A stretch of DNA of 64,000 nucleotides from Naegleria gruberi (taxonomy: Eukaryota): assembly GCA_000004985.1 (NCBI GenBank), contig GG738897.1; one strand, given 5' to 3'. Shown one piece after another: positions 1,305 through 60,600 of this stretch. The notes under the pieces were generated by a model. That model was not told the origin of the DNA. It saw only the letters and a program-made list of their open reading frames with translations, and did not search any database. Both the position numbers and the translations under genes were made by a program. Positions within the stretch are counted from its first letter, which is position 1. Each line of letters starts with the position of its first letter.

Positions 1305-1385
1305 CCCTAATAAAATGTGATCTTAAATTCAAACTATATAGTGTAGATTAAACTTTTGCTTAATACATATAGTTATAAAAAGAAG

Positions 1386-1456
1386 TAGGAAGACAGGGAA
1401 TCGAACCCTGATCTTAGGAACCACAATCCCATGTTCTACCACTGAACTATCTCCCT
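1386..1456 (-). tRNA. tRNA-His (anticodon GUG), 71 nt, no intron
   Basis: The reverse complement folds by hand into a cloverleaf. Acceptor stem AGGGAGA/TCTTCCT has 7 bp with one G-T. D arm is GTTC-AGTGGTA-GAAC. Anticodon stem TGGGA/TCCTA with loop TTGTGGT gives anticodon GTG. Variable loop is 4 nt. T arm CAGGG-TTCGATT-CCCTG carries the canonical TTCGA. The discriminator is A73 and no G-1 is encoded, consistent with eukaryotic tRNA-His receiving G-1 post-transcriptionally. Confidence 0.85.
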
Positions 1457-11644: not shown

Positions 11645-14600
11645 TTATTGATAATTCATAATTTGATACTTGTTGAGGAATAAACCAATTCTTTCAACAG
11701 TACTCTTGTATTTGTCCATAACAACTGGATACTTGTTTGTAATGACAGCAACAAATTTGTGAACAATGGAAAGTGAGGCCAATTGTTTGTGGAAAATATC
11801 ATTATTGTGGAGTGAGAAACCTTTAGAAATGGCTTGATTTTCAATTTCTTCCAATTGTTTAAAGTACATTACCAACAAGTATAAAATTCCCAAATACATA
11901 TATGATACATCGATGGATTCTGTTGGAATTTGGGAGATGATATCCTTCATTTGATCAGCATATTGGAACATGACTGAAGTGTACTGTAATTGATCTGTTG
12001 TTGAGCTTTGATAAAGTCCTTGATTACACATAGTCTCGTGCAACATTAAAATACTGCAGGAAAGAGAGAATAAATCAATGAGTAAAGATAATGGTGATGC
12101 CAAAACAGCTTCTTGATTTCCAGTGTACATTTGCATTCTTGCCTTTGTTTGTCCCTTAATCTTCTTTCTGAGAAGGAGTGAAAGTGTGAGATAAATCTTG
12201 ATATTTTCTGAAGACAATGGTTGTGTGGTGATGGTAATAATTTCATTCGGTATAGTACCAGTGGCATGCAAGTAACTTGTGAGCATGGTCATACCAACAA
12301 AAGATCTGAATGAAATTGTACAATCATCAGGAAGACAAACAGAGTTCAAAGGTTGATTTCTAGCTTGAACAGGTTGAGTAAAATTGACCAAACCATTAAC
12401 GTAATCCAATCCTCTATCCATAATAAATTGAATTTCATCATATTTGAATCCAACATAAACTCTATACTTCATCAATAACATGATTTGATTTGGAACCTTT
12501 GCAAAGACTGAATTTTCATGAGTGAGACCACCAGCATCTTCCTCATCTGAAGAAGCCATACAATTAATATAGGTTTGACTCATGTAATTTGGTGAATATT
12601 TTGTGAGAACACCATCAGCCAATCTCAAATACCTCTTTGAACCTGCCAAGTTTCCAACCGACAATAAATAATGAGCAAGAACAAGATTTCTAGCAACAGA
12701 GTTGGTAGAGTTGATGGTAAGAGATCCATTATTCAAAAGGGATGTCAAGGAATTATCTGGTAAAGGTGGCAATAACAGTTCAGATTTGTGATAAGCCATA
12801 TCAGCTTCAACACTATTGCCCATCACGAGTGCAGTAATGGCATGAATAGCATAGAGAAGTGACATGATATCATTGCCAAAGACTGAACTCATGGCTTCAG
12901 TGCCAAATAATACAGAATCAAAAACTTCTTGTGGAACCCAAGAATAACCAAGTGAAATGTATCTAAAATAGAAATCAAAATATGCTTTTCTAAAGATTGA
13001 AGCATTCATAACAATATTTTGAGTTGAAGCGAATGACATGTTTTGATTTCCAAATAACATATTATTATCCAAATTCATCAACATTGTTGGTACATTTGGA
13101 TTGGAAGTTCCAAGAATATTAATGTGATCTTGAGTAATTTCCTTCTGTTGATTCATCAATAGACCTTGTGAAATGATGGAACTGATGGAAGAGTTGATAG
13201 CATCCATATTGTTTTGATTATTGTTGAAGAAAATAGTTTGATTATCTGGATGGAAAGTATTGTTAGTTTGATTGTCCATCATTTGATGTTGTTGATGCTG
13301 TTGATGATGTTGCTGGATGACAGATTTTGTAGGAGTAGATTTCTTGTTCGATTTCTTTGCCTTCCTTGGGAATGAATAATTTTCAAATGAGCTATCTTGA
13401 TTTTGTTGCATTGAAGAGTCGGCTTGTCCCATGTGAGACTTGGAAGGAGATGTTAATTTTGAAACGGAATTTCTTTTTTGTACATTGGATGTTTCACATG
13501 AACTCTTTCTCTTCTTTTCTGTTTTGGTGTTTTGAGAATTGGATCCACCTGCTTGCCATCTGAAGGTGAAAATTTCAAAAGCGTTAGCTGTTTCCATTTC
13601 ATTTCCACTGGATCCACTAGTTGTACCAGCTGTTGAGCTTGTTGTTGAAATACCTCCACTAGTGGCTGTTGAAATGTTGGAAAAGGTTGAATCGACTGAA
13701 CCTCTCCTAGCTAGTAAATTGAGAGTTCCTGGATTCGTAATTGGTGTCCTCGAGGATGTGAAAAAACTACCTGTTGAACCACCTCCAGTGACCATAGTAA
13801 TACTGGAAACATCATTTCCTGCAGGTACAGGAACAGCTCTCTGATAAACTCTTCTCTGCTTCTTTGGAGTTGTGTAAACACATTGTAAACCTTGCTTTTC
13901 ACAATAGCTGCATTGAGGTAACTTTCTGTCGCTAAAGATAACATCAATGGACAAATAAGGAGTAATAATTTCCAATCAAGATTAATCGTTTGGTTGCAAA
14001 ATATGAAACTTACCATCGTTTGTGTCTTTCTCTGCAACGAGTGCATGCAATTGGGTGCAAGTTTGAACCTGGATTTTCATCGGAGGTTTGTTGACTTGCA
14101 GAATTATCATTCTCCATTTGAGAAGTATTATTGTTACATGTAGTTGTAGTATTATTATTATTGCTATCAGTATTACTAGAATTTTGTTGTTGCTGTGATG
14201 ATGATGATGGTTGGCTACTACCATTAGCAGCAGCAGTCATCAAGTATGCTTGCAAACTTGAATCACCAGCAGCAGTAGCTGTTTGAGAAGCTCCAACACT
14301 TCCAATTAAATTATTAGTATTATTATTTGGTGGGAGTGAATGCAAATTGGAGTCTTTTTTAGTAGTGTTGGTGTTTGTGGTTGTGGAAGACAAACCCGTT
14401 GGCACCTGTGGATGACTCGAGGAGGTTTGAAAGGATTCTGAAATTATCATGGCATCGGAAAGATTCATAGCCGTTACATGTTGATTGTTGTTGGTGTTGG
14501 TATTGGGCAGCAAACCTTGTGGAAGAATCGCCGAGTTTGATGGTTGTTGATGGTGTTGTTGTTGTTCCGAAAGTAATTGTTGTTGTTGGTGATGATTATT

Positions 14601-15077
14601 ATTATTATTATTTGTATTATTATTAACATTGTTTGGAGGTGGTGTTGAAGTTTGGGAGGAAAAAGACAAGAGGAATGAATCAAAATTAGAAGACATGTCA
14701 TTGCTCTGGCCGAATATTTGATTACCTGTTGTTGTTGTTGTTGCATTATTTGCTGATGAGGAAGTTATTGTTGTATTTGCTGTTGTTGTTGGAGTAAAGA
14801 AACAATCATGAAGCATGTGATGATTGCCACTTCCACTACTAACGTTATCGGATATGAGGTGTTCAAACTTTGGTTGATTTGATTGAGAAATATTGGAAGC
14901 TTGTTGGAAAAGTGCCGCCTGTTGAAAGATTAGTTTGGAAAGCATTTCATCATTCGTGTTCTGATTGATTGTCGAGGAAGAGGAGGAGGTTGAATTCATG
15001 AGTGAGGATACAACAATTGATGATGCATCAAATTCTTCTTCTGGTGAGGAGGAGGTCATTCTATCTGAACCAAGCAT
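11645..15077 (-). CDS. Zn(II)2Cys6 binuclear-cluster (GAL4-type) transcription factor, ~1116 aa, 2 exons: 14014..15077 and 11645..13931, intron 13932..14013
   Basis: Exon 1 ends ...PIACTRCRERHKR-tg and exon 2 begins c-gacagaaagttacctcaatgcagctattgtgaaaagcaaggtttacaatgt. The spliced product reads ACTRCRERHKRCDRKLPQCSYCEKQGLQC, an exact CX2CX6CX6CX2CX6C zinc cluster. The 82-nt intron gtaagtttcatatttt...tatctttag is in phase 2. The remainder has long N/Q/S/T-rich low-complexity tracts and a C-terminal globular region. Confidence 0.7.
14540..14650. repeat. coding trinucleotide microsatellite (TTG/ATT-type; encodes poly-Q/poly-N on the minus strand)
   Basis: Visible runs tgttgttgttggtgatgattattattattattatt inside the Zn2Cys6 gene. 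Similar AAT/CAA-type runs occur in the 24825..28724 gene (e.g. 25420..25480). Confidence 0.6.
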
Positions 15078-17706
15078 AGTATGATGATAGTATTCTCTTT
15101 ACAGATAGGTAAGTTGTTGAGTGATTGAGTGATGGTGCTTACTCAGAGTATGAAGTTTGAATCTTTTTTTTCAAAGATACCAAGAAGAATATTTCACTTA
15201 CTCACTCTCTAGTTGAATCTCAAGTATGAAGAAGAGCGAAAAAGAGTCTTACTTTGAATTTAAAAAAAACCCAAAAGAATTGGTTGAGATAATAATAAGG
15301 CTCTTAAAGTCCTGTGATAGGAGGAGTTTTCTCAAAAGCACTTTGAGATGTTATTGTTGTAATGGTCTTATTCAATGACACAATAAAGAAAATTCTATTG
15401 TATCAGAATATTCTCGAATATTCAATTGAATATTCACTTGAATACTAAATGAGGACAGTAACAAGATCAGAGACCTTAATGGTCATAGTATAAAGATGGA
15501 ACGACGATATCGTCGGTTGGCAAGGAATTATGACATTTTTTTCAAAGAATATTTGACAAATTCATTGTCGTATGACATTTCAATAATAATTTAAATTATT
15601 ATTGTGATAATTACAATAACAGTTGATGAGCATGACGAGAATATGAAAAACAAACCTGAATAGATAAAAAAACAGTGAGTGTAATATTTAGATGGATTGC
15701 AAAATGAATACACTCGAGTGAATTGTTGGATAATAAAAATTCGTGATGGCCAACAAGTAGGAGTTGCTGTTGCTGTTGCAGAGATGAGTCTTGCAGGGTT
15801 ATTGTTGTTTTTTTAGAAGAAGAAATTCGCTATTATCTGTTTGCTACATCCTTTGATGAATCTCGAGTTAATCTGTGGTGAATGGTCGTGCACAAACCGA
15901 GAATGTACAGTCCACCTTTGGTTCGGACAAGTGCGTTAAAACTATAAATGGGGACAAATGCGCTAAATGTAAAAAAAGTGATTATGCTGGGAAACAACAT
16001 TATGAAAACAAATGACTTGAAACCAATATCAGAGAGGGTTCTTAAATGAAAGTTAACATGATCATGAACTGGTTCTATAATTCTTCTTCTATCAATGGTT
16101 GAAACTATTGATTCTATTCAACAGAATACACTGAGAATCTTTGTAAATCCATCACGCAATTCCATTCTTATACCAACAATAACAGGTGTTGACAAGGAAA
16201 CCTGTTATTTAGGTCAAGATTACAGTTGGCAAATCGAGCTTATTTCCAAACTTTTTCAAGGATCATTAGTAGCTGTTCGGAAATTAAATCTCAATGTTCA
16301 GATTATTGGCGTTGGGTTTATTTAGCTATTCGTAAGATTGTGCCTTAAATGATACACAGAAAAAATGTCGTTTTAAAGCTTCAATTAAGGAATTAAGATG
16401 AGAATCTTGCCGTCCCATAAAAGTTGGTTAATTTTAAAGATGGTATTATGAAACTTACCTTGAGGTGATCATGCCGATATTATTGAGTGAGTTGATGAGC
16501 AATTTATAGCACATTAGCTTCTCCAAACATATCTCCTTAATGCATTGCAATGGAAAGGCTTCTGGTGTACAAAACCCTTTTCAAAAGGTTTTTTTGAGGA
16601 GGAGGTAATCTAATTGGTGTAATTTGTCATTTAAGGGTTCGAACCGAACTTGACCATGCAAGTCGTATAGTTGAAGGAATGATTAAGGCGAATTGGAGGT
16701 TTTACACTCAAAACTTACACGTTGTATCGAATTGTTGTAAAGTTTAAGAGGAATGGAAATGAGGAGAACCTTCAGCACTTCTTAATGTACGAATCCTTCC
16801 ATTGTGGTGATGACACTGATGTTTAATAGTGATTAGTATTGACAATATTGTTATTGAGGAAGAGTATAGAATGACTACAGCTGGATCCAATTTAAAATAT
16901 TGGGATTCTCTTCTTTCGTGCATTTTCCACTACAACTATTAAAGATTTAATGTCCATTGACAAGTGTTTAATTGATTGTAATCGAATAAATACTATTGAT
17001 TGACACTTACTGATGTTCCAAAAGTACAACTTTGGTTTGACAGTTGTCATGTTGGGAATATTGCAAGATACAACAAATTCAGAAAGAGAACCGGCACTCG
17101 AATCTTTACAAAACTGTTTGGCAATTTACGATTTTTGTAACCCATTTACTCTATCTATTGAGGATCTTCATTTATTTGTAAATTACAGACTTGTCATTTT
17201 GAATATTTTGAATATTTACATGATTTTGCATCTCTAGATATAAAATAACGACATAGAGGTGATGACCTAGATGTTTCTGCACAGTTGAGTTTCATTTTCT
17301 TCCACTTTCTTCCACATTCCTTCTCCTTCTCGTTGAGGAAGTTGTACTCGACCAGAGGGTTTTCGTCGTAATTGTTATAACACAACGAAAACCCTCAAGG
17401 TTTCAAAACAACTTTACAAAGTGTTGAAATTTCTTACTAATTTTCTGATTTTTTCAAAATTCAATCAACAATAAGATCCTCAACAATATAAAGAATCCAA
17501 TACTCCCCGACCAATCAAAAACAAAACCTCAATTCCCTCTCACTTTTATTAATAATCTCATCTTAGGCAATTTTGGAAATAATCCGGCGCGGTAGAAAAA
17601 CGCAAAAGAATGAACTTTAATTTTCAAATATAAAAAAAAATTTAAAAGCAAAGTGTAATTAGCAAAATCATTCCCGATCGTTTATCTATAGAGAATTATA
17701 AAGAAA

Positions 17707-19256
17707 ATGATCATCGGAAAGAGTAGTAGTAGTTTGATGCAAAAGAAGAGTTTGATCTTGATGATGGTCAATTCATTCTCTCGAACAAGTTTGAAATACA
17801 ATAAGAAGCAATTTTCTGCTAATTTATTGTCATTGACCACAACAAGTAATCAATCAGTGAGCAATTCAACATCCTCATCAGTTGAAAATACATTGAGTAA
17901 GGAAATTAGAGAGAAAATTATGGAAAATCAAAAGGTGATTGCTTCTCAATCTGCAAATAAGAAGAAACAAAATCTTGTCATTTTGGGTTCTGGATGGGCT
18001 GGCTTTCGTTTGATTAAAAAGATTGATTTGGAAAAGTATAATGTTAATGTAGTGACTCCGAGAAATCATTTCCTTTTCACTCCATTATTGCCTGGGTCTG
18101 CTTGTGGTACAGTTGAATTGAGATCAATTATTGAACCTGTGAGAAGAGCAGTTCATCACGAAGATTATCATTACTATGAGGGAAAGGCAGTTGCTGTTGA
18201 TACTGAAAATCAAAGAGTTATTTGCAAGCCAAATTATGAAAATGATCCAAATTTCACACTTCCATACGACAAGTTGGTGGTTGCAGTTGGATGTGACGTG
18301 AATGATTTTGGAATTAAGGGAGTAAAGGACTATACCTTCCCATTGAAAGAAATTTCACACGCCAGAACTATCAGACAACAAATTACTCAATGTTTTGAAA
18401 GAGCTTCCAATCCATCCACTCCAGTTCACTTACGTGAAACTCTATTGCAGTAAGTTTTTAAATAACTTTCGATTTTACAAAATTATTTAATTGAAAATGT
18501 AGTTTTGTCATTGTTGGTGCTGGTGCAACTGGTGTAGAGTTTGCTGCTGAATGTCACGATTTGATTAGAGATTTGTCAAGAAACTTCCCTCCAGAAATCA
18601 TGGAGGAGGTCAGTATGACAGTAATTGAGGCAGGAAGTACTGTCTTGTCTGCATTTGATTCTTCCCTTCAAAAGTATACTCAAAAATTCTTCCGTAGAAA
18701 TCACATCAAGATTAGAACCAATCAACAAGTTAAGGAGGTACTATCTCCAAACTCACTCAAACTTCAAGATGGATCCATTATTGAGTGTGGAATGATTGTT
18801 TGGAGTGCTGGTATTAAACCAAGATAAATAGAAATTTCCCAAGGAAGACAACTTCCAATCGATCCAAAAACTAAAAAGATTATTGTGGATGATCATTTAC
18901 ACGTGAAGGGATTTGATAATATTTGGGCCTTGGGTGATATTTCGCTCATTGAAACTGTTCCACTTGCAGCCACTGCACAAGTAGCCCAACAGCAAGGACT
19001 CTATGTGGCTCGTCATTTGAATGGTGAAATTGAGGAGAGTAAGCCATTTGTTTACCATCACATGGGTCAATTGGCCTATATTGGTAATTATAGAGCTATT
19101 AGTCAAGTTGGTGCAGTCAAGAGTGGAGGTTTCTTGAGTTGGCTCTTTTGGAGATCTGCCTACATGACAAGATTAGTCTCAATCAGAAACAAATTCAATG
19201 TCTTACTCAATTGGACCTCAACCTTTTGGTTTGGAAGAGACATTAGTAGATTTTAA
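17707..19256 (+). CDS. type II NADH dehydrogenase (NDH-2, alternative NADH:quinone oxidoreductase, Ndi1/NDE-like), ~498 codons, 2 exons: 17707..18449 and 18503..19256; contains an in-frame TAA at 18825..18827
   Basis: Predicted mitochondrial presequence. Hallmark motifs NLVILGSGWAGFRLIK, PRNHFLFTPLLP, second dinucleotide fold FVIVGAGATGVEFAAE after a 53-nt intron (gtaagtttttaaat...aaaatgtag, phase 2). Further matches: IVWSAGIKPR and NIWALGD. The C-terminus LSWLFWRSAYMTRLVSIRNKFNVLLNW matches the NDH-2 C-terminal helix. Track ORFs 18561..18827 and 18885..19256 are in the same frame and are separated only by a single TAA. Confidence 0.75.
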
Positions 19257-19611
19257 CTTCAATCATGACAGATTTCAATCAATAGGGACTTTTCATTTTG
19301 ATTGAATCTCTAGATAATAATTGAATTGTTCAATAAACAATTCTTATTTTTCAATACACTTCTCAATTAGTTAATATTCCAAATATTCCACTTTATTTAC
19401 CTTAACACCAATATTAAAAGGATTCTCGCTATCCACCTGTATCTTTTGATCTATTCTTCTATTACCTTTTTGGTAATCTTATCCAATCGAATCTGAAGAT
19501 CCACATTCTAAAATTCCATTCACCACTTTAGTCCGAATAGATCCGATTTTAACCATGTGGTTTCATAATTTTATTTGGATCAAATCTTCATTGTTTGATT
19601 GGAATGAAGTT

Positions 19612-57694: not shown

Positions 57695-60600
57695 ATGCGA
57701 ACACAAATACTCTGTATTTTTATTATTAATGCCATTCTCCTTGCCATCACAACACAAACAACTGTCCATTCACAAAATCCTCCTGAAAATCCTTCATGTA
57801 CTTCACAATTTCTTGTGAATAATGAAATTTCAAAAGCTATGGAATATTTACAGTTCAATATGTTCATGATGATGACTTCGGAATTTGATGATCATCAACA
57901 GGATTTTTCATCGTCACAAGCGAGAAATGTGAAGAATTGCAGTTTGGCAAATCCGTGTGAAAATTTAACACAAATTCTCTCAGTACTGAACAAGACACTT
58001 GTGGAAGATAATTTTAACTTTTATAATCGGTCAACTGAGAGGCTGGTAGTTTTGAATATTAATTTATTGAATGATATTTTGGATACAACTGAACATTTTA
58101 TTGAAACTCCAATAATTTCTGGTTTGAATTATATTTTCAAATTTAAGAGCGTATCAGATTCGGATAGAAATTTGATTCAATTGAAATGGAAGGGATCTTA
58201 TGATCGATCCTATGTATTGACAAGACCAGATATTAAGTGGTTTTACTTTGAGAATGTGACACTTAATTTATTTAGATTGAATAATACGGATGTTGCAAAT
58301 CTTGGTTTTTGTAATTGCTTAATTGTGGATACGTGGTTGAATTTTGTAACGAATAGAGATTTTTATATTGAAAAGAGTCAATTGATTAGATCAATTATTT
58401 ATGCAACTACAAATTTGTGGTTCTATGACAGATCAGAAACCATTAAATATGGAGAATATTATGTGACAGGTTTGACAGCTATTTATAATAATAGTGAAAT
58501 TCATGAAACACGACTCAGATGGACAGTCAGCAGTGTTACAAATCTAATAATTGAAAATTCATTATTTGAAGATTTTTTGGTGGAAATGACCTTCAAACAA
58601 GTGACAAATGTTCTCATTCGAAACTCCACCTTTATTCGTGATTATTTGGATTATAAGGAAGAGTCAGTGAATGCACTTCAAGGAAATTCATTTCGTGTTA
58701 TTAATTGCACCTTTCAACATGCTTATTCATTCCTTTTTGTGAGATCTTATATTTTTGTTTCAATTGATAGCTCAATTGTTTCTAATAATCAGCTGATGAA
58801 GGAGAATTTAATTAGTGTTTTCTATGGGATTATTGCAATTCAGAGTTGTATCACTGTTATGGTTTCCAATTCTCAATTTTCAAACAATGAAGGTTATGAA
58901 AGAGCTTCTGCACTTTACTTGTCAGATGTCAATGTATTCCATGTGAGAAATTGCCAGTTCACTAACAATTCTGCCTCCAGCATCTTCTCAAATAGTTATC
59001 CTAATAGAATGTTTGATAATGATAAGTCTTATTACTGGTATACTGTTTCCAATTGCAAATTCGAAGGAAATACCTGTAACAAGGAAGGTTGTGGAATTTA
59101 CATTTCTGACTCAATTGACCTGACAATTCAAAACAATATTTTCCTGAATAACACAGCTCAATATGGTGGAGCAGCTCTCTTTATCAAAATTGGAGCCAGA
59201 GCTGTAATTTTAAATAATTTATTTATTGGAAATAAGGTACTTTACAATAATTTATTACGACAACCTGCTAGTACTTTCTATTATGGAGGCGGAGGAGCTG
59301 TTTCTATAATTACTACTCAATTGGGACTTTCAGAAAGCAAACTATTGGCAAATACTTTCATTAATAACGAAGCTCTCTATGGTGGTTCATTATTTTTTGT
59401 TAGGGAATCTTTGGTGGAAATTTCCAATTCAACATTTATTGGAAATAAGGCAAAGAGAGGAGGAGCCATGTTTTACTATTCACCAAGTGTAGAACAAACT
59501 GAAATATTTGATAATGTGTTTAAGGAAAATGTTGCAGAAATTGGAAATGATTTATTGACAAGTGTCGTTGCTTTGGATTGGGATAATAGTACTGTACATC
59601 ATGTCAAACCGGGTGATGCTATTTCATTGGATGTAAAGACATTCGAATTGGGTGGATTACTTATTCCAACAAATACTGAAAATTTCACAGTCTTTACTGA
59701 TAACCCAAGTGTTTATTTGGATTTTTTACAGAACGAAACCTCATTTACAATATCCATGTATTTAATGGGTGATGTTACACCAAATTCCTATGGAAATTTC
59801 ACACTATTCCTTGATAGCAATCCAGCAATTACCTTTTTTCATTATTCCATCAATTCATGTGGGGAAGGAAATGAATTGAGAGTAATTGGTAAGAATCAGA
59901 TGGCCGTTTTGAAATGTGTGCCATCTCCTGCTAGCCTACTACCTCTAATTCTATCAGTTTCCATTCCAGTTGGTGTTTTTATTGCCATAGTGAGTGTTTT
60001 TATTGGAATAATTTTGGGCATGGTTGGAATTCCAAAAATTAATAATATAAAACGACGATTGAATCTATTGCAGGAAAAGGAGAGTGCCGAGCAGAGTGTT
60101 GAGCAGAAGATTATTGATAAGAAGGTGGTATTCAATATGAACGATGAAGGTGACTTTAAGGAGCCATTACTGAAAAACTATGAACTGGAAGATCCAATAT
60201 TTCGTTTTATCATTTCTCCAAAGGATATTGACATTGTAAAGAAGGTAGCAGAAGGAGGGTATGTAGTTGTGTGTTTATTGTAACAATTCACTAACAATTT
60301 GATAAGAAATGGAGTGGTTTACAAGGGAACGTGGAAAGGAATTGAAGTTGCCATTAAGACTATTAAGGCAAAGAATGAAAGTAGAGACGATTTTGAGAAT
60401 GAAATTTCACTTCTCGCCTCTATTAGAAATCCACATATTTTGAATTTTTATGGAGTTTGTGTGACGGAGAATGAAACATTTATGATTACAGAGTTTTTGG
60501 AGAATGGAAGTTTGGAGGGGATTATTTATTTGAGTAGGATTGGTCAATTCAAACTCTCATTCCATGAAAAATTGAGAATTTTATATGAAGTAGCTATTGG

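What the first reader, a model, noticed from the sequence alone, without database searches (positions are those of the whole stretch)
18811..18831. In-frame TAA inside a conserved block of an otherwise intact NDH-2 gene
The two track ORFs of exon 2 are in the same frame and are separated by a single TAA (18825..18827). It falls between WSAGIKPR and IEISQGRQLPIDPKTKKIIVDDHLHVKGFDNIWALGD. The spacing to the following conserved block equals that in yeast Ndi1/Nde1 (WATGNKARPVITDL...), so the codon sits within coding sequence rather than at a domain boundary. Other genes in the window clearly terminate on TAA, so a reassigned code is unlikely. That leaves a sequencing or assembly error, a very recent nonsense allele (pseudogene), programmed read-through, or a 21-nt GT..AG mini-intron (18811..18831). 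The mini-intron is far shorter than every other intron here (41-145 nt) and would delete the conserved IKPR.
Basis: seen in the sequence. Interest (0 to 1): 0.6.

Follow-up and report, generated by a model that had tools for sequence, protein, structure and literature searches.

The report
Single-base premature stop in Naegleria NDH-2
One C-to-T difference turns a glutamine codon into a stop in the middle of a Naegleria gruberi respiratory-enzyme gene; the public annotation hides it behind an invented 21-base intron, and it is an ordinary nonsense allele or base-call error, not a new mechanism.

Summary
Window 18825..18827 is an in-frame TAA at codon 356 of a two-exon type II NADH dehydrogenase (NDH-2) gene. 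The window is Naegleria gruberi NEG-M. The deposited protein XP_002672456.1 (NAEGRDRAFT_81197) equals exactly the product made by splicing out 18811..18831, so the public model uses the 21-nt "mini-intron". That intron is an artefact. It deletes an invariant Gly plus IKPR. Its donor is GTATTA, against GTAAGT in nine plausible introns of 46-145 nt in the window. In one relative both its GT and its AG are missing. Three independent metagenome contigs from close relatives read through the site: CAA (Gln) at about 99% CDS identity, CAA at 88% amino-acid identity and AAA (Lys) at 75%. The TAA is therefore one C>T change (position 18825) from an ancestral CAA. dN/dS against the closest relative is about 0.09 and there is no other lesion, so the change is very recent or not real. 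TAA-A is the normal terminator context here, and no read-through signal or significant RNA structure was found. The choice is between a recent nonsense allele of the NEG-M strain (slightly favoured) and a consensus base error. Only reads or cDNA can decide. Interest is low. The practical result is that the deposited protein sequence is wrong.

The parts
17707..18449 (+). NDH-2 exon 1. It holds the N-terminal presequence and the first Rossmann motif GSGWAG, and ends in ...RETLL + CA.
   Evidence: ORF. Translation. Alignment to Willaertia, Acrasis and bacterial NDH-2. Pfam Pyr_redox_2 covers residues 89-413.
18450..18502 (+). The genuine spliceosomal intron: 53 nt, GTAAGT...TAG, in phase 2.
   Evidence: Joining 18449 to 18503 gives ...LLHFVIVGAGATGVE, which matches all homologues. 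In relatives L001 and L082 the intron keeps its position, its GTAAGT donor and its YAG acceptor, while its interior diverges and carries indels.
18503..19256 (+). NDH-2 exon 2. It holds the second Rossmann motif, the GD motif, TAQVAQQQG and the NDH2_C domain. The natural stop is TAA at 19254..19256.
   Evidence: NDH2_C (PF22366) covers residues 434-494.
18825..18827 (+). The in-frame TAA at codon 356. Its first base, T at 18825, is C in the closest relatives, where the codon is CAA (Gln).
   Evidence: Sequence. L001 has C at this position. The codons are CAA in L001, CAA in L082 and AAA in L083. The proteins P0130 and P0132 read ...GIKPRQ....
18811..18831 (+). The 21-nt 'mini-intron' used by the deposited gene model XP_002672456.1 / EFC39712.1. 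It is judged an annotation artefact, and this stretch is coding sequence (G I K P R [Q] I).
   Evidence: An exact-sequence look-up shows that the 491-aa product lacking these 21 nt is the deposited protein. Removing them deletes invariant G351 and the I.PR block. The donor is GTATTA, against GTAAGT in nine plausible introns of 46-145 nt. In L082 the GT is GGA-ATT and the AG is TTGG, so neither splice site exists. The differences among relatives fall on a codon pattern.

Best explanation
What is shown. The TAA at 18825..18827 is a one-base C>T change from an ancestral CAA (Gln356) codon. It lies inside the coding sequence of the Naegleria gruberi NEG-M gene NAEGRDRAFT_81197. This gene encodes a bacterial-like type II NADH:quinone oxidoreductase with two exons and one real 53-nt intron. 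The TAA is not inside an intron and is not a reassigned or programmed codon. The 21-nt intron in the public gene model was introduced by gene prediction to step over the stop. It yields a wrong protein that lacks GIKPRQI.

What is inferred. I take the T to be a genuine, very recent nonsense allele carried by the sequenced laboratory strain. It is probably heterozygous or arose during clonal axenic culture. Translation of that allele would stop after residue 355. The product would lack the GD motif, the TAQVAQQQG block and the NDH2_C domain, and I infer that it would be inactive. The loss would be tolerated because a second allele and/or the other N. gruberi NDH-2 (XP_002672148.1, detected by proteomics), together with complex I, cover NADH oxidation.

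Confidence for the 'single-base change in coding sequence, mini-intron is an artefact' layer is about 0.9. Confidence that the T is a real allele rather than a consensus base error is about 0.5, and that is the figure given below.
For: Source organism and deposited model come from exact look-ups of window proteins. The ancestral codon is CAA in L001 (about 99% CDS identity) and in L082 (88% amino-acid identity), and AAA in L083. Willaertia has His at the site and other homologues have K, E, S, T or R. Purifying selection is strong: 9 synonymous against 3 non-synonymous differences from L001, dN/dS about 0.09, with no other stop or frameshift. An old pseudogene is therefore excluded. The case against the mini-intron rests. 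TAA is the standard terminator: it ends 22 of 31 long open stretches and TAA-A is the commonest tetranucleotide. The truncated product would lose Pfam NDH2_C (434-494) and the last part of Pyr_redox_2. Heterozygosity in N. gruberi is reported in PMC9928731. A second NDH-2, XP_002672148.1, is detected at the protein level in N. gruberi (PMC9035749). C>T is the commonest class of spontaneous point mutation (general knowledge).
Against: No independent NEG-M data could be found. The exact ORFs expected from a TAA-bearing assembly are absent from the public collections. Two scans of JGI metagenomes found nothing closer than 56% identity. A wrong consensus base in the Sanger draft assembly would look exactly the same. 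The perfect state of the rest of the gene fits an error as well as it fits a very young allele. My rough estimate of error-derived against real heterozygous nonsense codons per genome rests on memory and gives comparable numbers. There is no evidence on expression or on heterozygosity at this site.
Confidence: 0.5

Rival explanations
1. The TAA is a consensus base-call or assembly error in the NEG-M draft genome. The real NEG-M sequence is CAA, the gene is intact, and there is no biological feature at all.
For: The closest relative differs at this codon only by T/C and reads CAA. The gene is otherwise flawless and under strong constraint, with dN/dS about 0.09. No second lesion exists. The gene predictor had to invent an intron to get round the stop, which is the typical footprint of sequence errors in draft eukaryotic genomes.
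Against: Single-base substitution errors are rare in multi-fold Sanger consensus (general knowledge). It is the only such case seen in 64 kb. N. gruberi is reported to be heterozygous, so real allelic nonsense variants are expected at a similar or higher frequency. The change is a C>T transition, the commonest class of real mutation.
Confidence: 0.4
2. The TAA is genuine and functionally recoded, so that full-length NDH-2 is still made. The route would be programmed stop-codon read-through, or U-to-C editing of the nuclear transcript that restores CAA.
For: The 142 codons downstream are fully open and conserved. A genomic T where relatives have C is the pattern seen at U-to-C editing sites in plant organelles. 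N. gruberi encodes DYW-type PPR editing factors (PMC4202320).
Against: The stop is not conserved: relatives have CAA, CAA and AAA. TAA followed by A is this genome's normal terminator context. From general knowledge it is an efficient termination context in eukaryotes. No CARYYA- or CUAG-type downstream motif is visible in the sequence. The downstream fold is not significant, with z = -1.34 and 20 of 200 shuffles folding at least as well. The editing known in Naegleria is C-to-U, mitochondrial, and limited to two sites, whereas this is a nuclear gene with a spliceosomal intron. An intact downstream ORF is also expected for any very recent mutation.
Confidence: 0.04
3. 18811..18831 is a real 21-nt spliceosomal mini-intron, as in the deposited model XP_002672456.1, and the mature protein lacks GIKPR-I.
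For: The element has GT..AG ends, is in frame and is 21 nt long. The public annotation uses it.
Against: Splicing it out removes G351, which is invariant in 17 of 17 aligned sequences, and the conserved I.PR block. The aligned set includes bacterial enzymes, which have no introns. The donor GTATTA does not fit the GTAAGT seen in nine plausible introns of the window. The shortest of those is 46 nt. N. fowleri workers set 30 bp as the minimum intron length (PMC8296547). In L082 both splice dinucleotides are absent, and the stretch changes at third codon positions (GGT/GGA, AAA/AAG, ATT/ATC). The real intron behaves in the opposite way. L001 encodes the stretch as an open ORF.
Confidence: 0.02
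4. The gene is an old, decaying pseudogene, or TAA is a sense codon in this organism.
For: An in-frame stop is present. No N. fowleri or N. lovaniensis orthologue appeared among the top hits, which might hint that the gene is dispensable.
Against: There is only one lesion, dN/dS is about 0.09, and the gene is intact in three relatives. TAA terminates most long ORFs, and five exact-match annotated proteins of 386-1299 aa contain no internal TAA.
Confidence: 0.02

Closest known systems
Type II NADH:quinone oxidoreductase (NDH-2), for example yeast Ndi1 (PDB 4G6G) and bacterial NDH-2 (PDB 4NWZ, 5NA1)
   Same: The domain set matches: Pyr_redox_2 + Pyr_redox + NDH2_C. Both GxGxxG motifs, the GD motif and the TAQVAQQQG block are present. 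The alignment to Ndi1 gives E = 2e-67 and is gapless across the stop site.
   Different: The reference sequence carries a premature TAA at codon 356. The protein is closer to Bacteroidota/Ignavibacteria NDH-2 (47-50% identity) than its E = 2e-67 match to Ndi1 would suggest. It is a different paralogue from the NDH-2 (XP_002672148.1) studied in N. gruberi.
Spurious micro-introns placed by gene predictors to bypass in-frame stops or frameshifts in draft genomes (a general annotation artefact; stated from my own knowledge)
   Same: The deposited protein equals the product with 21 nt containing the stop removed. The element has only minimal GT..AG support, and it deletes conserved residues.
   Different: No difference of kind. 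Here the artefact can be shown directly, because near-identical relatives encode the stretch.
Segregating or strain-specific nonsense alleles (very young unitary pseudogenes)
   Same: There is a single transition that creates a stop. The ORF is otherwise intact and constrained. A paralogue could buffer the loss.
   Different: Whether the allele exists in the organism is unproven, because no NEG-M reads were available.
Programmed stop-codon read-through (for example the TMV UAG-CARYYA and UGA-CUAG contexts) and plant-organelle U-to-C editing that removes genomic stops
   Same: Only the superficial picture matches: an in-frame stop followed by a conserved open reading frame, and a T where relatives have C.
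   Different: The stop is not conserved, the context is wrong, there is no supporting structure, and the gene is in the wrong cellular compartment for the known editing.

Membership tests
NDH-2 (type II NADH:quinone oxidoreductase) | Pyr_redox_2 fold with two dinucleotide-binding GxGxxG motifs | tested here: met
   PF07992 has E = 3e-48 over residues 89-413. PF00070 covers residues 248-328. GSGWAG and GAGATG are seen in the translation and are conserved in the alignment.
NDH-2 (type II NADH:quinone oxidoreductase) | NDH2 C-terminal domain | tested here: met
   PF22366 NDH2_C has E = 1.7e-17 over residues 434-494. These residues lie downstream of the TAA, so the domain is present only if the stop is not used.
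NDH-2 (type II NADH:quinone oxidoreductase) | Sequence similarity to solved NDH-2 structures, including the conserved AQxAxQ block | tested here: met
   Ndi1 4G6G gives E = 2e-67. Plasmodium 5JWA and bacterial 4NWZ and 5NA1 also match. T405, Q407, V408, A409, Q410, Q411 and G413 are invariant.
NDH-2 (type II NADH:quinone oxidoreductase) | Rotenone-insensitive NADH:quinone reductase activity of this gene product | not testable with these tools
   No expression or activity data exist for XP_002672456.1. No paper cites this accession.
Spliceosomal intron (claim for 18811..18831) | GT..AG termini | tested here: met
   GTATTA...ATAG.
Spliceosomal intron (claim for 18811..18831) | Length and donor consensus typical of the organism | tested here: not met
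   The element is 21 nt, against 46-145 nt for nine plausible GTAAGT introns in the window (those introns are inferred from ORF joins, not from cDNA). The donor is GTATTA.
Spliceosomal intron (claim for 18811..18831) | Splice sites conserved in relatives, with the interior free to vary | tested here: not met
   L082 lacks both the GT and the AG. The differences are codon-wise and synonymous. The genuine intron 18450..18502 shows the expected pattern.
Spliceosomal intron (claim for 18811..18831) | Removal leaves the conserved protein intact | tested here: not met
   Removal deletes invariant G351 and the I.PR block.
Spliceosomal intron (claim for 18811..18831) | Junction observed in cDNA or RNA-seq | not testable with these tools
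   No N. gruberi transcript data were reachable.
Programmed stop-codon read-through | The stop codon is conserved among relatives | tested here: not met
   The relatives have CAA, CAA, AAA and His.
Programmed stop-codon read-through | Leaky stop context or a stimulatory downstream RNA structure | tested here: not met
   TAA-A is the commonest terminator context in the window. The fold of 18825..18944 has z = -1.34, which is not significant.
Programmed stop-codon read-through | A read-through protein is detected | not testable with these tools
   The accession is absent from the held proteomics supplements. The paralogue listed in that paper's main table was not found in them either, so this look-up is uninformative.
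Stop-codon reassignment (TAA as a sense codon) | In-frame TAA is frequent in conserved genes, and TAA is not used as a terminator | tested here: not met
   TAA ends 22 of 31 long open stretches. ORFs of up to 1454 codons contain no TAA. Only one such in-frame stop is present in 64 kb.
Old (decayed) pseudogene | Multiple disabling lesions and relaxed constraint (dN/dS near 1) | tested here: not met
   There is a single lesion. dN/dS is about 0.09 over 1476 sites. Downstream of the stop only 2 differences exist, so constraint there cannot be measured separately.

The most novel reading that the evidence does not exclude
The T is real and homozygous in NEG-M, yet full-length NDH-2 is still produced. 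The route would be efficient read-through of a UAA-A stop, or U-to-C editing of a nuclear mRNA by one of Naegleria's DYW-type PPR proteins, restoring Gln356. Either would be unprecedented for this lineage. For nuclear U-to-C editing it would be unprecedented in general.
Probability: 0.03. Interest if true: 0.75.

Novelty: new member of a known kind. Interest (0 to 1): 0.12.

Why it matters
The biological importance is small and the practical value is modest. The RefSeq/UniProt entry for this N. gruberi NDH-2 (XP_002672456.1 / D2VTU4) is wrong. It lacks seven residues, including an invariant glycine, because a fake 21-nt intron was used to skip a stop codon. The correct reading is ...WSAGIKPR(Q)IEISQ.... 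Anyone modelling the branched respiratory chain of Naegleria, where NDH-2 is discussed as a drug target in the pathogenic relative, should use the corrected sequence. The same holds for anyone using this protein in phylogenies of a probably bacterial-derived NDH-2. They should also check whether the reference laboratory strain carries a null allele. The case further shows that tiny introns in this annotation can mark sequence errors or nonsense alleles.

Tried and rejected
1. Exact-sequence look-ups of the ORFs that a TAA-bearing NEG-M assembly would yield found nothing. These were the 248-aa exon 1 ORF, the 75-aa ORF ending ...GIKPR, and the 123-aa downstream ORF. The 123-aa query starts at GTG and may have been translated with V rather than M, so that particular look-up is weak.
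2. An exact-pattern scan of JGI metagenomes for the 30-mer around the site, with the first codon base left free, gave 0 hits.
3. A protein-guided scan of JGI metagenomes found nothing above 56% identity, only more distant (40-56% identical) NDH-2 sequences.
4. A literature search for the accessions XP_002672456, NAEGRDRAFT_81197, D2VTU4 and EFC39712 found 0 papers. The held proteomics supplements of PMC9035749 did not contain the accession, but they did not contain the paralogue listed in the main table either, so this is uninformative.
5. The genome paper (PMID 20211133) and PMC4929615 are not held. NEG-M coverage and heterozygosity figures could therefore not be cited first-hand.
6. I enumerated all 105 in-frame GT..AG 'introns' of up to 400 nt that span the stop. 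None has a GTAAGT donor, and all delete conserved residues.
7. Code reassignment, an old pseudogene and read-through structure were tested and rejected.
8. The only tRNA in the window is tRNA-His, so there is no suppressor candidate.

Full report
**1. Observation.** One search shows ...TGG AGT GCT GGT ATT AAA CCA AGA TAA ATA GAA ATT TCC CAA GGA AGA..., with the TAA at 18825..18827. The gene runs from ATG 17707 to the end of exon 1 at 18449. A 53-nt intron follows (18450..18502, GTAAGT...TAG). Exon 2 runs from 18503 to the stop at 19254..19256. Joining the exons gives a 1497-nt CDS with one internal stop, at codon 356. A six-frame scan of the 64 kb looked for single stops flanked by at least 70 open codons on each side. 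It found eight. From the flanking sequence printed there, and without following up the other seven, this is the only one inside a homology-supported coding block.

**2. Source and public annotation.** Exact-sequence look-ups of window ORFs identify Naegleria gruberi strain NEG-M, on a 326,913-nt scaffold with neighbours EFC39714 to EFC39719. The 491-aa protein obtained by deleting 18811..18831 is identical to EFC39712.1 / XP_002672456.1 / D2VTU4 (NAEGRDRAFT_81197).

**3. What the gene is.** Pfam finds Pyr_redox_2 (residues 89-413, E = 3e-48), Pyr_redox, and NDH2_C (residues 434-494, E = 2e-17). The best solved relative is yeast Ndi1 (4G6G, E = 2e-67). The next are Plasmodium and bacterial NDH-2.
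- The closest proteins are from the heteroloboseans Willaertia magna (69% identity) and Acrasis kona (54%).
- A large set of bacterial NDH-2 sequences follows at 45-50% identity.
- The N. gruberi NDH-2 followed by proteomics in the literature is a different paralogue, XP_002672148.1 (PMC9035749).
- No paper cites this gene's accessions.

**4. The codon lies in coding sequence.** In a 17-sequence alignment, W348 and G351 are invariant, S349 is nearly so, and the I.PR block is conserved. The column of the stop carries H, E, K, K, K, S, K, T, R or K in the ten closest homologues (five of them named or eukaryote-sourced, the rest unnamed database entries). It carries A, D, P, S, E or L in the six most distant, two of which are named bacterial. 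The Ndi1 alignment is gapless across the site: WSAGIKPR-Q-IEIS pairs with WATGNKAR-P-VITD.

**5. Close relatives give the ancestral state.** Three independent ENA metagenome contigs carry the orthologue.
- L001 (ERZ929261, 2240 nt) aligns to window 17102..19367. In the CDS it differs by 13 substitutions and one 12-nt in-frame indel. At 18825 it has C, so its codon is CAA. Its ORF product P0130 reads ...WSAGIKPRQIEISQGR....
- L082 (P0132, 88% amino-acid identity) reads GGA ATT AAG CCA AGA CAA TTG GAA.
- L083 (P0134, 75% identity) reads GGT ATC GTT CCA AGA AAA TTA GAA.

The ancestral codon of the N. gruberi group is thus CAA. The window differs from it by a single C>T transition.

**6. The mini-intron is an artefact.**
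- (a) Removing it deletes invariant G351 and the IKPR block.
- (b) At 21 nt it is less than half the length of the shortest plausible intron in the window. Nine introns that join long ORFs in frame are 46-145 nt long and all begin with GTAAGT. This element begins with GTATTA (those introns are inferred from ORF joins, not from cDNA).
- (c) Published figures give an average intron length of 203 bp for N. gruberi. For N. fowleri, 30 bp was used as the minimum intron length when mapping reads (PMC8296547).
- (d) In L082 neither the GT nor the AG exists, and the differences among relatives lie at third codon positions.
- (e) The genuine intron behaves in the opposite way. It keeps its position, its GTAAGT donor and its YAG acceptor, while its interior diverges and carries indels.

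**7. Not a recoded or reassigned codon.**
- TAA ends 22 of 31 long open stretches in the window, and TAA-A is the commonest tetranucleotide.
- ORFs of up to 1454 codons lack any TAA.
- The stop is not conserved in relatives.
- The 120 nt starting at the stop fold no better than shuffled sequence, with z = -1.34.
- No tRNA other than tRNA-His is present in the window.
- The RNA editing known in N. gruberi is C-to-U, mitochondrial, and limited to two sites (PMC4202320). This case would need U-to-C editing of a nuclear transcript.

**8. Not an old pseudogene.** Against L001 there are 9 synonymous and 3 non-synonymous differences (pS 0.029, pN 0.0026, dN/dS about 0.09). There is no other stop or frameshift. 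Only two differences lie downstream of the stop, so constraint there cannot be judged separately. The lesion is very young or not real.

**9. Consequence if the stop is real (inference).** Termination after residue 355 removes the final segment of the Pyr_redox_2 fold with the ALGD motif. It also removes the invariant TAQVAQQQG block and the NDH2_C domain. The next in-frame ATG downstream is at residue ~435, so re-initiation giving a useful fragment is unlikely. The product would be inactive. The loss could be buffered by a second allele, since N. gruberi is described as heterozygous (PMC9928731). It could also be buffered by the other NDH-2 paralogue and by complex I.

**10. Real allele or base error?** This could not be resolved here.
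- No independent NEG-M-derived sequence exists in the collections searched.
- My rough expectation, from general knowledge rather than computation, is that the two sources are comparable. These are error-derived nonsense codons in a multi-fold Sanger draft, and real heterozygous nonsense variants captured in a one-haplotype consensus.
- The change is a transition and the strain is heterozygous, which tips the balance slightly towards a real allele.
- My estimates are about 0.5 for a real allele and about 0.4 for an error. Recoding gets about 0.04, a real mini-intron about 0.02, and other explanations about 0.02.

**11. Verdict.** The feature is ordinary: a point nonsense allele or a consensus error, hidden in the public record by an invented micro-intron. 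Interest is low. The useful outcome is a corrected gene model and a simple PCR or read-pileup test.

Noticed in passing
window 19123|19124; L082 ~1014-1062; L083 ~1900-1935: Intron presence/absence. Relatives L082 and L083 carry an extra GTAAGT...YAG intron that splits the Ser codon (AG|T) of ...GAVK-S-GGF.... NEG-M and L001 have uninterrupted coding sequence there. This indicates a precise intron loss, or a gain, within the N. gruberi group.
   Followed up: partly
window 17707..19256 (the whole gene): This NDH-2 looks bacterial-derived. It is 45-50% identical to many unnamed metagenomic NDH-2 sequences. The few named ones are Bacteroidota, Ignavibacteria, Hydrogenedentota and Lentisphaerae. 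The only named eukaryotic hits are Willaertia and Acrasis. No N. fowleri or N. lovaniensis protein appeared in the top 120. The gene may be a lateral acquisition kept by only some heteroloboseans, and it is distinct from the canonical Naegleria NDH-2, XP_002672148.1.
   Followed up: partly
window 17858..17869: There is a 12-nt in-frame indel (TGAGCAATTCAA) in the Ser-rich N-terminal presequence relative to L001. It looks like length variation in a low-complexity targeting region.
   Followed up: no
window 14001..16000: GC skew is +0.30 in this 2-kb bin, far above the rest of the window, where |skew| is mostly below 0.2. It lies next to the minus-strand gene at 14010..15077. Unexplained.
   Followed up: no
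window 60259..60306 and 60281..60283: A TAA separates an 865-codon and a 127-codon open stretch in the same frame. GTATGT and GTAACA...CTAAC motifs lie nearby. This is probably an ordinary intron whose flanking exons happen to share a frame. The exact splice sites were not determined.
   Followed up: no
window 1385..1456 (-): tRNA-His (GTG), the only tRNA gene in the window.
   Followed up: no
(a database effect, not window sequence): The cluster that holds the deposited N. gruberi protein is represented by a 244-aa exon 1 fragment, P0129. It was not listed in either homology search, so the organism's own protein was invisible there and was found only by exact look-up. This is a caveat for any 'no close homologue' conclusion drawn from that tool.
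   Followed up: yes
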